NCBI GenBank assembly: GCA_964442255.1
Contig: CAYTYC010000003.1
Coordinates: 1-64,000, forward strand
Direction of reading: 5' to 3'
Length of the DNA: 64,000 nucleotides
Origin: an uncultured archaeon
Lineage (GTDB): Archaea > Iainarchaeota > Iainarchaeia > Iainarchaeales > 1-14-0-10-31-34
Each line of letters starts with the position of its first letter. The stretch's first letter is position 1. This document shows, in pieces, positions 27,001 through 30,000 of this stretch. A program made the position numbers.

Positions 27001-30000
27001 AATCCTTGCAGCCATCCTGTCCAGGGTGGGGTTATTAAGATTTACAATCCACGTATTAACGTGTTGCACGCCGGCTCCAAGAGTTTTACCGATAATCTTT
27101 CCTTCAAGCGGCAGTAATGCGTATTTGTTCCACATCTCCACAGGCCAAGCGGCTACTTTCACTCCTACTTGGGCTGCTTCGGGAAGCTTAGCCATCCCTT
27201 TAGTAAGCCCGGCTTCTGCAAGCTCAGCCAGACGAACGGCTTTAAATCCTGCCATTGACCCGGCCAGTGCCCCAACAGAACCAGCTGTAACCTTACCAGT
27301 CAGGCGTTTTTTGAGGTCAGTTCCAACTCCCCCCGCCTTTTTAGGTGATTTATGCCCCGCCATGAAGTATCCCTCCTGAGAAAACATGGCACTAAGTCCT
27401 TAATATGCTTTTTTCTTGACAGGAAATGTGCCCCTCCAAAAGGATTTAAAAACATCCAGCCTTCTATCTTTTTGGCTTTAGGGAAAAAGGCTTCAGTCTG
27501 CCCGGATTGGGGCCTGAATGCCCTTGAAAGCGGAGGTGAAAGAGTGGGCGAAAAAACGCTTAAAATCAAGACAATTGAGGATTTGCCTGGAATTGGCAGC
27601 GGGGCAGCCGAAAAGCTTCGCGCGGCAGGCTACAGGGAACTGGAAAACATTGCGACTGCTTCTCCCATGGAATTAAATGAAATAGCCGGTTTGGGCGACG
27701 GCACGGCCGCAAAAGCCGTGAAAGCCGCAAGGGAAGCAATGGACATGGGATTTGAACCCGCGGACCTGCTTGCGGAAAGAAGAAAAACACTGGGAAGGCT
27801 TACAACAGGCTCAAAGGAACTCGATGAATTGCTTGGCGGGGGAATTGAAACGCAAAGCATAACCGAATGCTACGGAAAATTTGCCTCGGGAAAAACCCAG
27901 GTGTGCTTTCAGGTTGCGGTCACAAGCCAGCTTCCGCCAGATAAGGGGGGTTTGGGGGGAAACGTGATGTACATTGACTCCGAAAACTCGTTCAGGCCGG
28001 AAAGGATTACGGCAATAGCGGAGCACCACGGTCTGGACCCCTCAAAGGTTTTGAAGAACATTTTTGTTGCGCGCGCATACAACGCCGACCACCAGATGCT
28101 TTTGGCGGAGAAAGCGGCAGAAATGCTTAAAGAAAAGAAAATAAAACTGGTCATAGTGGATTCCCTTACCTCCCTTTTCAGGACAGAGTACCTGGGAAGG
28201 GGAAAGCTTGCGGACAGGCAGCAGCAGCTGGGAAAGCACATGAGGGTTTTAATGAAGATGGCTGAAATGAATAATATCGCAGTATTGGTGACAAACCAGG
28301 TGATGCAGAGGCCCGACATTTTGTTCGGAGACCCCACTGCACCCATTGGGGGAGAAATTGTGGCGCACAGCAGCAAAACCCGGCTATACTTGAGGAAAAG
28401 CAAAGAAGACAAGAGGGTTGCAAAGCTTGTGGACTCGCCTTCCCTTCCGGACGGGGAAGCATTGTTCAGGGTGACAACAAACGGGCTGGAGGACGTTTGA
28501 ATGCGTCCTTTAGCCTAACAGGAACCGGGAGGCAAGAATGAAAACAGCTATAAGCACACCCACAAAACCTTCCCCCCCAATAAGGCCTGCCGCCATCAGC
28601 CTGCCTTTCTCCGTGAATTTTCTCCGGTCAGCAAACAAACGGATTAACCCCCCAAGGAACAGGGGAAAAGAGAGCTCAACCGGAACGTAAACGCCTATCC
28701 CAAACGCAACAGGAAGGATTCCAAGGCGGAGAAAGGTTGTGATAAGGGTCAGGGTAAACCCAAGGACCGCGCCGACTGCAAGCATGGTTTCAAGCGTTTC
28801 CGCCCCCGCGATTTCGCCTATCGCAACCGCCTGAGGGGCAGGCAGCTCAATCCCACCGATTCCGTAAACCGTGTTAAGGGAAACAAGCACAAGGCCCAAA
28901 ACAAGGGAGGCGGCAATTACTCCCGTGAACTGCGCAATTAACTGGTGGCGGGGATTTGTGCGGAGCAAAAAGCCTGCTTTCAGGTCCTGCATGAAGTCCC
29001 CCGCAATTCCCGCGGCAATGCAAACAACGGCTGCAAGGATTATCAGGAAAATTGCGTTGAATCCCAGGAAAATTTTAGCCGCGATAAGGACAATCATCGC
29101 AAAGATTTCCATCGGGTCAACGTTCATTTCACCGGTTACACGGGCGCCAACATAAGCCATCAGGAACGCGCCGAGTATTGCGATAACTGAAAGGGCAAGG
29201 TTCATTTCAGTTATTATTGTGAGGAGGGCGACAAGGACTATTACGGCCAGGCCAAAAAAACGGTTGAAGCCGGCCTTTTCTTTCCTGAAGCCACGGAACA
29301 TTTTCGCGAAAGCCGGGATTCCCTTCAGCAAAAAGTATGCGATTGCCGCCCCTATAACAATTCCAATCCCCAATGGTTTGGTGAATTGCACCATTGCGAG
29401 GGCCTTTTCCCCAAAAATGCCTGCGGAAACAAGGTAAGGAATCAGGAGAAAATAGCTTGCGATTGCGCCCAAAAACCATGCGCCGGTAAAGCGCGGGCCA
29501 ATAAGGTAGCCTCCCGCCAGAGAAACCAAGGAAATGCCTGCGCCAAAGGAAAAAAGCTTTGCGGCCTGCAGTTTTAGGAGGTCAATGTTCCAGAAATGGG
29601 GGATAAGCTCGAGGTAGTCACGGAGGAAGCTGAAAACCGCCCCGACCCCAAACATCGCCATTACGGTTTTTATTTTTTTCCCGCCTTCATCGCCTGCCAT
29701 GATTATTGCCGCTGCGGCTGTTCCATCCGGGTAAGGGAGCTGTTCCCTTTCAATCATCTCTTTGCGCAAAGGAACGCTGAAAATTATTCCCGCAATTCCG
29801 CCAACCAAGGAAATAAACATTATTTCCGGCACTGAAATGTCAAATCCCAGCACCCAGATTGCAGGAATAGTGAAAATTATTCCCGCCGCAAGAAGTCCGC
29901 CCGCACTGGCGGCGGTTTGGGCGACATTTATTTCGTTGTTGTTAGTGTTCCGCAAAAGGGTAAGCAAAGCCATTGCAAGAATTGAGGTAGTTATGATGGG

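What a model noticed while it worked through the whole genome (the two positions that open the first line are those of the whole stretch)
27416..27543. A 21-nt box next to the TATA element marks the promoters of radA, mcm, nurA-herA, a DNA-repair radical-SAM gene and thre [...]
The sequence TT[CG]AC[AC]GGAAAT-NN-GCCCC(CC), with an internal inverted repeat (CAG-GAAAT-CTG or CAC-AGGAAAT-GTG), occurs 15 times (one mismatch allowed; 19 with looser copies), never inside a gene. It lies 5-9 nt upstream of an A/T-rich TATA-like box and, where a gene follows, 45-61 nt (radA 116) before the start codon of a co-oriented gene: radA (g00241, C3:27416), mcm (g00850, C14:810), nurA, first gene of the nurA..herA cluster (g00657, C9:45951), a radical-SAM protein with a helix-hairpin-helix DNA-binding tail beside endonuclease III (g00464, C6:37120), the three LAGLIDADG genes g00093, g00300 and g00581 (C1:64177, C4:11446, C8:36993), two DUF7718 paralogues (g00094, g01054), an antito [...]
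Evidence so far: Found when the flank of the tRNA-Thr cassette was seen again before g00581; fuzzy scans and contexts. Pattern TTSACMGGAAATNNGCCCC, up to 1 mismatch: 15 hits here, 0 for the reversed control pattern, 0 in the 8 other genomes of the family. All 15 lie between genes although 89% of the genome is coding (summary.tsv, call 3). Distances to the next co-oriented start codon: 47,45,47,61,60,47,57,46,56,49 nt, 116 (radA), 106 (g01051); three copies have no gene call behind them (C14:22425, C11:39094, C48:58 at a contig end). g00464: Radical_SAM plus HHH/HHH_3 at residues 307-349; g00094 and g01054: DUF7718.
(Added by a program. Inside this text positions count along the whole contig: contig position 1 is position 1 of the stretch shown here. 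"Call 12" and the like, gene names such as g00115 and contig names such as C1 are that model's own, and its searches are not shown. The text may have been shortened before it was handed on; [...] marks where a part breaks off. The agent that wrote the report below was given it as the finding of a first reader that could run no searches.)

Follow-up and report, generated by a model that had tools for sequence, protein, structure and literature searches.

The report
Replication-repair promoter box of Iainarchaeota
A short DNA box sitting just upstream of the TATA element marks the promoters of DNA replication, recombination and repair genes, and of several selfish genes, throughout a lineage of tiny DPANN archaea, which points to an SOS-like or S-phase-like gene circuit whose regulator protein is still unknown.

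Summary
TTSACMGGAAATNNGCCCC occurs 15 times at up to 1 mismatch in the 1.28-Mb genome, against 0 for the reversed pattern. All copies are effectively intergenic, co-oriented with the gene behind them and 23-25 nt from a TATA box.

The box is not a young cassette. Its core, CA[CG]NGG[AC]AA[AT]-NN-RCYC, stands at the same promoter position before radA and mcm across the whole order (record titles: Candidatus Iainarchaeum/Diapherotrites) and in sister orders. Only the C-rich arm is species-specific, which explains the zero strict-pattern hits in the 8 sister genomes.

In four relatives the box also precedes nurA, hel308, hef, xpd, ssb, nreA, nucleases and DNA methylases. It also precedes LAGLIDADG, Bro-N, PIN, HEPN and HicB genes.

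Best reading: the operator of a conserved replication/repair regulon, bound just upstream of BRE, probably by an activator.

The regulator is not identified. The best candidate is the second, initiator-type Orc1/Cdc6 paralogue. It is present in 38 of 41 genomes, its winged-helix domain evolves fast, and it is paired divergently with box promoters in 5 of 30 genomes.

The radA distance is explained by a covarying structured 5' leader RNA (window 27474-27538) with no Rfam match. No expression data exist.

The parts
27416..27427 (+). Core arm of the box, TTGACAGGAAAT (order consensus [TC][TG]CA[CG]NGG[AC]AA[TA])
   Evidence: Conserved at radA and mcm promoters of relatives.
27430..27434 (+). C-rich arm of the box, GCCCC (RCYC in relatives). 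It is species-specific in sequence but fixed in position.
   Evidence: C at -17..-11 from TATA is 38-62% in 8 box promoters and 17-23% in 182 other promoters.
27437..27444 (+). A-rich BRE-like stretch, CAAAAGGA, directly behind the box
   Evidence: A-rich positions -9..-4 are general in this genome's promoters. That this is the BRE is inferred.
27445..27452 (+). TATA-like element, TTTAAAAA, 23 nt after the first G of the GG core
27474..27538 (+). Structured 5' leader of radA: a stem-loop of four stacked helices that ends at the Shine-Dalgarno GGAGG (27532-27536)
   Evidence: Covariance-model hit L021:1559-1623, 26.2 bits, E 0.0033. Fold -29.7 kcal/mol, z -3.35. Covariation across 37 loci. No Rfam family matched.
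27544..28500 (+). radA (GTG start; Rad51/RadA recombinase)
   Evidence: Pfam Rad51 E 4.5e-96. Homology with relatives starts at 27544.

Best explanation
The box is this genus's version of an old, bipartite, non-palindromic operator, [TC][TG]CA[CG]NGG[AC]AA[TA]-NN-RCYC(C). In the Iainarchaeum/Diapherotrites lineage it lies directly upstream of BRE/TATA. It marks a regulon of DNA replication, recombination and repair genes. The conserved core of that regulon is radA, mcm and nurA. Variable members are hel308, hef, xpd, ssb, nreA, Cas4-like and other nucleases, a UDG-linked radical-SAM protein and DNA methylases. Selfish and defence genes have been added to it: LAGLIDADG endonucleases, Bro-N proteins, PIN/HEPN/HicB/Fic/DUF7718 modules. 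A sequence-specific protein binds the box and touches the TFB/TBP complex next to it. From its position it most likely activates transcription. The signal is inferred to be either DNA damage (SOS-like) or replication/S phase. Shown here: over-representation, orientation, fixed spacing, conservation at orthologous promoters, and gene content. Inferred: protein binding, the sign of regulation, and the signal.
For: The motif gives 15 hits against 0 for the reversed pattern, all effectively intergenic. GG-to-TATA spacing is 23-25 nt in 18 of 24 G000 sites and 20-21 nt in 29 of 36 radA promoters of relatives. A box plus TATA is found upstream of radA in 55 of 80 loci at PWM score >=6. The reverse strand gives 2 of 80 and shuffles 3 of 80. 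The PWM came from 56 radA/mcm regions of partly the same genomes. The pattern CACCGGMAA-N14-21-TTWAWA gives 153 matches in 41 genomes of the order, against 9 for the reversed pattern; some sites count twice because the gap is variable. An ORF of at least 50 aa follows all 45 sites examined in 4 relatives and starts within 50 nt of the TATA in 34 of 45. Of those 45 ORFs, 14 are repair, replication or DNA-modification enzymes, 12 are selfish or defence genes, 3 are other, and 16 have no family. NurA, LAGLIDADG, Bro-N, PIN, SSB, DUF7718 and two unnamed families recur behind boxes in different genomes. Genomes from other orders of the class show box-like elements before the radA TATA: clearly in G047, as a GGGGAA variant in G051, G052 and G074. 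The C-rich arm is not a general promoter feature. Only one TFB gene is present, so the box is not the BRE of a TFB paralogue.
Against: There are no expression data and no mapped transcription starts; no RNA run was listed. No binding protein is identified. The 14-nt core alone is not specific: at a PWM score of 15 bits or more, only 17 of 61 hits are intergenic. Only the whole architecture is specific. Membership varies: in G000, hel308, hef, nreA, ssb and rad50 have no box of their own. About a third of the genes behind boxes have no known function. Gene calls are my own crude ORF calls, and all genomes are metagenome bins.
Confidence: 0.8

Rival explanations
1. The box is a repressor operator. 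Like a LexA or DdrO site, it keeps the regulon off until damage removes the repressor.
For: The gene set looks SOS-like: a recombinase, repair enzymes, toxin-antitoxin modules and mobile elements. The C-rich arm abuts the BRE, so a bound protein could block TFB.
Against: The site lies wholly upstream of BRE/TATA. By recalled examples and the passages of PMC5817253, that is where archaeal activator sites lie, whereas repressor sites usually overlap BRE/TATA or the start site. No Peptidase_S24 (LexA-type) gene was found in G000, which is 93.8% complete.
Confidence: 0.3
2. The box is a young mobile promoter cassette that spread within this one genome.
For: The strict pattern is absent from the 8 sister genomes. 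Two pairs of copies share extra upstream flank: C9:45933 with C14:22407, and C7:29551 with C14:810. One copy starts at the base after tRNA-Thr, beside a LAGLIDADG cassette.
Against: Orthologous radA, mcm and nurA promoters carry the element across the order and in sister orders, with lineage-specific variants.
Confidence: 0.03
3. The box is an extended core-promoter element read by the basal factors (a special BRE/TFB or TBP variant), not by a dedicated regulator.
For: It keeps a fixed distance to TATA and is contiguous with the BRE.
Against: Only one TFB gene is present. In 182 other promoters there is no enrichment at these positions. TBP paralogues were not counted.
Confidence: 0.05
4. The boxes are dispersed ORB-like sites that serve replication (dormant origins or MCM loading), not transcription.
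For: The form resembles an ORB: a TTC...GAA core plus a G/C string. One box lies beside orc1-B.
Against: The copies are single, always co-oriented with the gene behind them and at a fixed distance to a TATA box, with no cluster around an AT-rich region.
Confidence: 0.03

Closest known systems
Sulfolobales DNA-damage response element (DDRE, 5'-A(N)TTTC-3') and its regulator Orc1-2
   Same: Both are non-palindromic elements directly upstream of BRE/TATA. The DDRE lies at -44 to -39 and is essential for promoter activity; it is bound by an Orc1/Cdc6 paralogue (PMC5817253, passages read; PMC9738581, passages read). Both share a GAAA/TTTC core. Here too a second Orc1/Cdc6 paralogue with a fast-evolving winged helix is the best candidate regulator.
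   Different: The box is 19-21 nt and bipartite. It reads GGAAAT on the coding-direction strand, and its complement ATTTCC does not fit A(N)TTTC. The regulon consists of repair and replication enzymes. Both Orc1 paralogues here resemble initiator-type Orc1-1 (2V1U, 2QBY_A) more than ORC2 (1W5S). The lineage is a DPANN phylum.
Bacterial SOS box / LexA regulon, and the Deinococcus RDRM / DdrO-IrrE regulon
   Same: One short operator before the recombinase gene, repair genes, ssb, toxin-antitoxin modules and mobile elements. The comparison is recalled, apart from the abstract start of PMC8533742 in the listing.
   Different: Those operators are palindromic repressor sites that overlap bacterial promoters. 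No S24 peptidase gene was found here. This box is asymmetric and lies upstream of an archaeal BRE/TATA.
Archaeal origin recognition boxes (ORB and mini-ORB)
   Same: An invariant TTCC and GAA core in Pyrococcus (PMC1904270, passages), and a G-string read by the AAA+ domain (PMC3936714, passages). The box has TTC-N4-GAA plus a C/G string.
   Different: ORBs cluster around an unwinding region next to orc1/cdc6. These boxes are single, dispersed and locked to TATA boxes. The relative orientation of core and string could not be compared because figures are not held.
Eukaryotic G1/S promoters (E2F, MCB) that co-regulate MCM, RPA and RAD51 (recalled)
   Same: One promoter element links replication-licensing and recombination genes.
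   Different: There is no credible E2F/DP-type domain in G000: the best hit is 15.9 bits, below the cut-off, in a protein with no family.

Membership tests
Transcription-factor operator defining a regulon (generic) | Over-represented, intergenic, oriented with the gene behind it, at a fixed distance to the core promoter | tested here: met
Transcription-factor operator defining a regulon (generic) | Conserved at orthologous promoters in other species | tested here: met
   radA in 55 of 80 loci, against 2 of 80 and 3 of 80 for the controls; mcm and nurA; sister orders
Transcription-factor operator defining a regulon (generic) | A protein binds it and changes transcription | not testable with these tools
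   No RNA run was listed. DNA-protein modelling is not on offer.
Sulfolobales DDRE / Orc1-2 regulon | Non-palindromic element directly upstream of BRE/TATA | tested here: met
   PMC5817253 passages
Sulfolobales DDRE / Orc1-2 regulon | Sequence 5'-A(N)TTTC-3' on the coding strand at -44 to -39 | tested here: not met
   The sites listed read GGAAAT. The complement ATTTCC does not fit, and the orientation is opposite.
Sulfolobales DDRE / Orc1-2 regulon | The regulator is an Orc1-2-type (non-initiator) paralogue | tested here: not met
   Orc1-B scores 218.6 bits to 2V1U and 76.3 to 1W5S. Orc1-A scores 232.5 to 2QBY_A and 83.8 to 1W5S.
Sulfolobales DDRE / Orc1-2 regulon | Induction by DNA damage | not testable with these tools
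   no expression data
Archaeal ORB / mini-ORB | TTCC...GAA dyad core | tested here: inconclusive
   G000 has TTCACAGGAA (TTC-N4-GAA). The first two T positions are only weakly conserved in the order PWM.
Archaeal ORB / mini-ORB | Several copies around an AT-rich unwinding region beside orc1/cdc6 | tested here: not met
   Single dispersed copies. No box plus TATA upstream of orc1-A in 0 of 30 genomes.
Bacterial SOS (LexA) system | A LexA-type S24 peptidase repressor is encoded | tested here: not met
   No Peptidase_S24 match in G000, which is 93.8% complete.
Bacterial SOS (LexA) system | Regulon of recombinase, repair genes and mobile or toxin genes | tested here: met

The most novel reading that the evidence does not exclude
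Throughout Iainarchaeota one of two initiator-type Orc1/Cdc6 paralogues (Orc1-B) has become the master transcription factor of a replication-repair regulon. It reads an ORB-like half site plus a C-string placed against the BRE. Orc1-A keeps a conserved dyad operator at its own promoter. This would be a second, independent recruitment of an Orc1 protein as a global regulator, after Orc1-2 in Sulfolobales. It would link origin-type DNA recognition directly to expression of radA, mcm and nurA. radA would also carry a second, RNA-level control through its structured leader.
Probability: 0.3. Interest if true: 0.8.

Novelty: new variant of a known kind. Interest (0 to 1): 0.68.

Why it matters
Apart from the Orc1-2/DDRE system of Sulfolobales, archaea are not known (as far as I recall) to have a coordinated DNA-repair regulon. 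Nothing is known about gene regulation in DPANN archaea, none of which from this lineage is cultured.

This finding gives a concrete and testable cis-element. It also gives a list of regulon members, including two widespread unnamed protein families, and a short list of candidate regulators.

It shows that homing endonucleases, toxin-antitoxin modules and Bro-N genes plug into the host's replication/repair promoter code, as SOS-controlled mobile elements do in bacteria.

My two literature searches (listings only) found no description of such a regulon in Diapherotrites, Iainarchaeota or DPANN.

Tried and rejected
- **Covariation of box position 9 (A or C) with Orc1-A/B alignment columns.** Only highly variable columns scored, with no clean switch. 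Inconclusive.
- **Autoregulation of orc1-B through a co-oriented box.** None found in 30 genomes. No shared motif was seen in 24 orc1-B promoters.
- **The 76-aa winged-helix-like box gene (C7:6601-6831) as regulator.** It has homologues in only 3 of 40 other genomes.
- **Lrp/AsnC and HTH_3-CBS genes near radA.** They are not syntenic with radA in 29 relatives.
- **TFB paralogue.** Only one TFB gene is present.
- **E2F/DP and WYL domains.** No credible hit.
- **Box pattern of this genus in viral contigs.** 0 matches.
- **Sequencing runs.** No RNA holder was listed; two DNA runs of one study hold the stretch.
- **ESM Atlas for the unnamed ~500-aa family.** Only chance-level neighbours. A PDB profile search gave only 5mdn_A (DNA polymerase) at E 3.1. 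Pfam on 68 members found nothing.
- **AlphaFold job for that family.** It had not finished after repeated polling (last poll), so no fold was seen.
- **RNAalifold on a plain MAFFT alignment of radA leaders.** It gave 0 pairs. The structure emerged only from single folds and covariance-model alignment.
- **ORB clusters near orc1 genes of G000.** None seen.
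Full report
**Observation.** Window 27416-27434 (+) reads TTGACAGGAAATGTGCCCC. It is the only match in the window, and none of 100 shuffles had a match.

In the whole assembly (51 contigs, 1,277,402 bp, 46% GC) the pattern TTSACMGGAAATNNGCCCC has 9, 15, 25 and 49 hits at 0, 1, 2 and 3 mismatches. 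The reversed pattern has 0, 0, 0 and 5. An independent search gave the same 15 sites and no hit in the 8 other genomes of the family.

Twelve of the 15 sites overlap no ORF of my crude gene call (1406 ORFs, 90% coding). The other three overlap ORF calls that are artefacts of always taking the longest ORF.

Pfam confirms the genes behind the boxes: radA, mcm, nurA, a radical-SAM/HhH protein, two LAGLIDADG_3 genes and two DUF7718 genes. The radical-SAM protein is also TIGR03916-like.

Sites with 2 mismatches, or found with a position-weight matrix (PWM), add:
- a Cas4-like PD-(D/E)XK nuclease;
- a Bro-N protein;
- a Fic protein;
- a FolC/Mur-ligase-like gene;
- several small ORFs.

The third 'LAGLIDADG' gene (C8:37053-38057) was not confirmed.

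**Anatomy.** Every copy is followed by more C residues, an A-rich BRE-like stretch and a TATA-like hexamer. The first G of the GG core lies 23-25 nt before the TATA in 18 of 24 sites. Most ORFs start about 35-55 nt after the box, which fits leaderless or short-leader mRNAs.

In 182 other promoters of this genome, aligned on their TATA, C at -17..-11 is 17-23%. In 8 box promoters it is 38-62%. The C-rich arm therefore belongs to the box and not to the general promoter. The genome has a single TFB gene.

**Age.** The upstream regions of radA in 29 genomes and of mcm in 27 genomes of the same order carry a related element at the same place. Examples are CGCACCGGAAATCTggtc..., TTCACCGGCAATCTggtc... 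and CGCAGTGGAAATCCaccc..., each followed by BRE/TATA.

I built a PWM from those regions. It finds a box plus TATA upstream of radA in 55 of 80 loci fetched from public genomes. The reverse strand gives 2 of 80 and shuffled sequence 3 of 80. Some of these loci come from the same genomes as the training set. Their record titles read Candidatus Iainarchaeum or Diapherotrites.

The spacing from GG to TATA is 20-21 nt in 29 of 36 high-scoring loci.

The pattern CACCGGMAA-N14-21-TTWAWA has 153 matches in 41 genomes of the order, against 9 for its reversed form. Within one genome the 3' arm is uniform, but it differs between genomes: ACCCT, ACTC, GGTC, and GCCCC here.

The three family members examined have CAACGGCAG..., CACCGGCAT... 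and CAGAGGCAAT variants. That explains the zero hits of the strict pattern.

Four genomes from other orders of the class also show box-like elements before the radA TATA. One is TACCGGCAAGCCACTC; three are GGGGAA(A/C)G variants. The element is therefore old and co-evolves with its reader. It is not a young cassette.

**Regulon.** I fetched 45 CACCGG-type sites from four relatives. All have an ORF of at least 50 aa behind them, and 34 of these start within 50 nt of the TATA. Pfam sorts the ORFs as follows:

| Class | Members | Count |
|---|---|---|
| Repair, replication or DNA-modification enzymes | NurA x3, Hel308-like, Hef-like (ERCC4 helicase-nuclease), XPD-like x2, SSB x3, Nre (NreA-like), PD-(D/E)XK nuclease, two DNA methylases | 14 |
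| Selfish or defence genes | LAGLIDADG x4, Bro-N x4, PIN x3, HEPN, HicB | 13 |
| Other | acylphosphatase x2, flavodoxin | 3 |
| No family | | 15 |

All-against-all BLAST shows families that recur behind boxes in different genomes. Two of them are unnamed.

- One is about 500 aa long (308 aa in G000, C9:39914-40840, upstream of rpoK). It has 188 representatives in the public protein space, no Pfam domain and strongly conserved motifs.
- The other is 62-73 aa long and sits divergently next to orc1-B.

Membership varies between genomes. In G000, hel308, hef, nreA, ssb and rad50 have no box of their own. The contig C20:1-13 kb, which holds four boxes, is a toxin-antitoxin and defence island.

**Mechanism.** The following points identify a transcription-factor operator:
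- an asymmetric element of about 20 bp;
- always co-oriented with the gene behind it;
- fixed to within a few bases of BRE/TATA;
- conserved at orthologous promoters.

Its place, wholly upstream of the BRE, is where archaeal activator sites lie. This includes the Sulfolobus DDRE at -44 to -39, which is essential for promoter activity (PMC5817253, passages). I therefore favour activation, at roughly 55:30 over repression. The signal, DNA damage or replication phase, cannot be told from sequence.

**Regulator.** Of the 41 genomes, 38 encode two Orc1/Cdc6 paralogues. So do four genomes of sister orders. Both paralogues resemble initiator-type Orc1-1 structures more than ORC2.

Points in favour of Orc1-B:
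- The box has the form of an ORB: a TTC...GAA core plus a G/C string (PMC1904270 and PMC3936714, passages).
- A box promoter lies divergently upstream of orc1-B in 5 of 30 genomes from five families, against 0 of 30 for orc1-A. This may reflect one conserved synteny.
- The winged-helix domain of Orc1-B is far less conserved than its ATPase part (34% against 52% mean pairwise identity). For Orc1-A the figures are 58% and 61%. This matches a drifting box on one side. On the other side it matches a well conserved dyad...GGAAGTGGTTCAGTTCCACAACTC plus TATA, found once at the orc1-A promoter in 15 of 30 genomes.
- Walker A and B motifs are intact in 28 of 28 sequences of each paralogue.
- The only genome without a clear box at radA and mcm (G038, 85% complete) is one of the three in which only one Orc1 gene was found.

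Points against Orc1-B:
- there is no direct evidence of binding;
- no co-oriented box precedes orc1-B;
- the covariation test was inconclusive;
- neither paralogue is Orc1-2-like.

I put Orc1-B at about 0.3.

**Leader RNA.** The long distance from the radA box to the start codon is filled by a structured leader. Thirteen of 13 leaders fold into the same stack of helices. A covariance model iterated three times finds it in 37 of 81 radA loci at E<=0.1, always on the sense strand and directly before the start codon. In the window it lies at 27474-27538.

On that alignment, which is fitted to the model, 91% of cells pair, against 34-49% when the partners are slid. All 18 pairs show changes on both sides. 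The covariation score is 0.85, against at most 0.12 for the slid controls.

The conserved unpaired parts are AAn and aAAAa in an internal loop and CCaAa in the apical loop. The last helix ends at the GGAGG Shine-Dalgarno sequence. No Rfam family matched. radA may therefore be controlled twice: at the promoter and at the leader.

**Limits.**
- All genomes are metagenome bins.
- Gene calls are crude.
- There are no RNA data.
- Figures and supplements of the cited papers were not seen.
- What I say about SOS, RDRM, E2F and activator positions beyond the cited passages is recalled.

Noticed in passing
window 27474-27538 (+): Structured 5' leader of radA, conserved by covariation in 37 of 81 radA loci of the lineage, ending at the Shine-Dalgarno sequence. 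No Rfam match. It is a candidate cis-regulatory RNA of unknown ligand or partner.
   Followed up: yes
L260:1310-1350 (G020), L254, L258 and 12 other orc1-A loci: A conserved dyad, TTAGTGGAAGTGGTTCAGTTCCACAACTC, occurs once, 8-10 nt before the TATA of orc1-A, in 15 of 30 genomes. It has two inverted GGAA half sites that resemble the box core. It is probably the operator of orc1-A.
   Followed up: partly
G000 C9:39914-40840 (L010:3038-3961, -), and ~500-aa homologues L107, L124, L143: An unnamed protein family driven by the box in 4 genomes. It has 188 representatives, no Pfam domain, and invariant motifs EPERQFL..W.YFD and YNLGF(D/E)T.NC.CCKP. There are weak, non-significant hints towards family-B DNA polymerases. 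In G000 it is followed by rpoK.
   Followed up: partly
G000 C8:19191-19393 (L013:3762-3965, -); L154:1202-1387; L163:2747-2965; L161: A small protein of 62-73 aa, helical-looking by eye, driven by a box and placed divergently next to orc1-B in four genomes of different families. No family matched.
   Followed up: partly
mcm upstream regions of relatives (L062, L064, L065, L067, L068, L071, L075, L078 and others): Repeated CTCCCAAYAC-like words, one to three copies, lie 30-120 nt upstream of the box at mcm in many genomes. No cluster was found in G000. This may be another operator or an origin element.
   Followed up: no
G000 C1:64104-65320 (L017:3928-5144): tRNA-Thr(CGU) ends at the base before the box of a LAGLIDADG gene. 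A repeat of the tRNA 3' end (not called as a tRNA) precedes the next box and a DUF7718 gene. This looks like a cassette inserted at the tRNA 3' end.
   Followed up: partly
G000 C20:1-13000 (L016): A defence and toxin-antitoxin island (AbiEii, HicA/HicB, Fic/DOC, DUF7718 plus an ArsR-like HTH) that holds four boxes, next to ssb and pyrF.
   Followed up: partly
G000 C9:41384-43627; radA and mcm of G008, G016, G039, G033, G031 and others: Inteins interrupt herA in G000 (Intein_splicing/Hint hits). Judging from split matches in long ORFs, they also interrupt radA and mcm in several relatives.
   Followed up: no
This suggests local duplication or a further site.
   Followed up: no
G000 C21:1231-2034 (L092): A third, short Orc1/Cdc6-like gene (268 aa; AAA+ and lid domains, no winged helix). 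A similar one is present in G034.
   Followed up: no
G000 C6:37237-41763: A 1508-aa RHS-repeat protein is encoded divergently from the box-driven radical-SAM gene.
   Followed up: no
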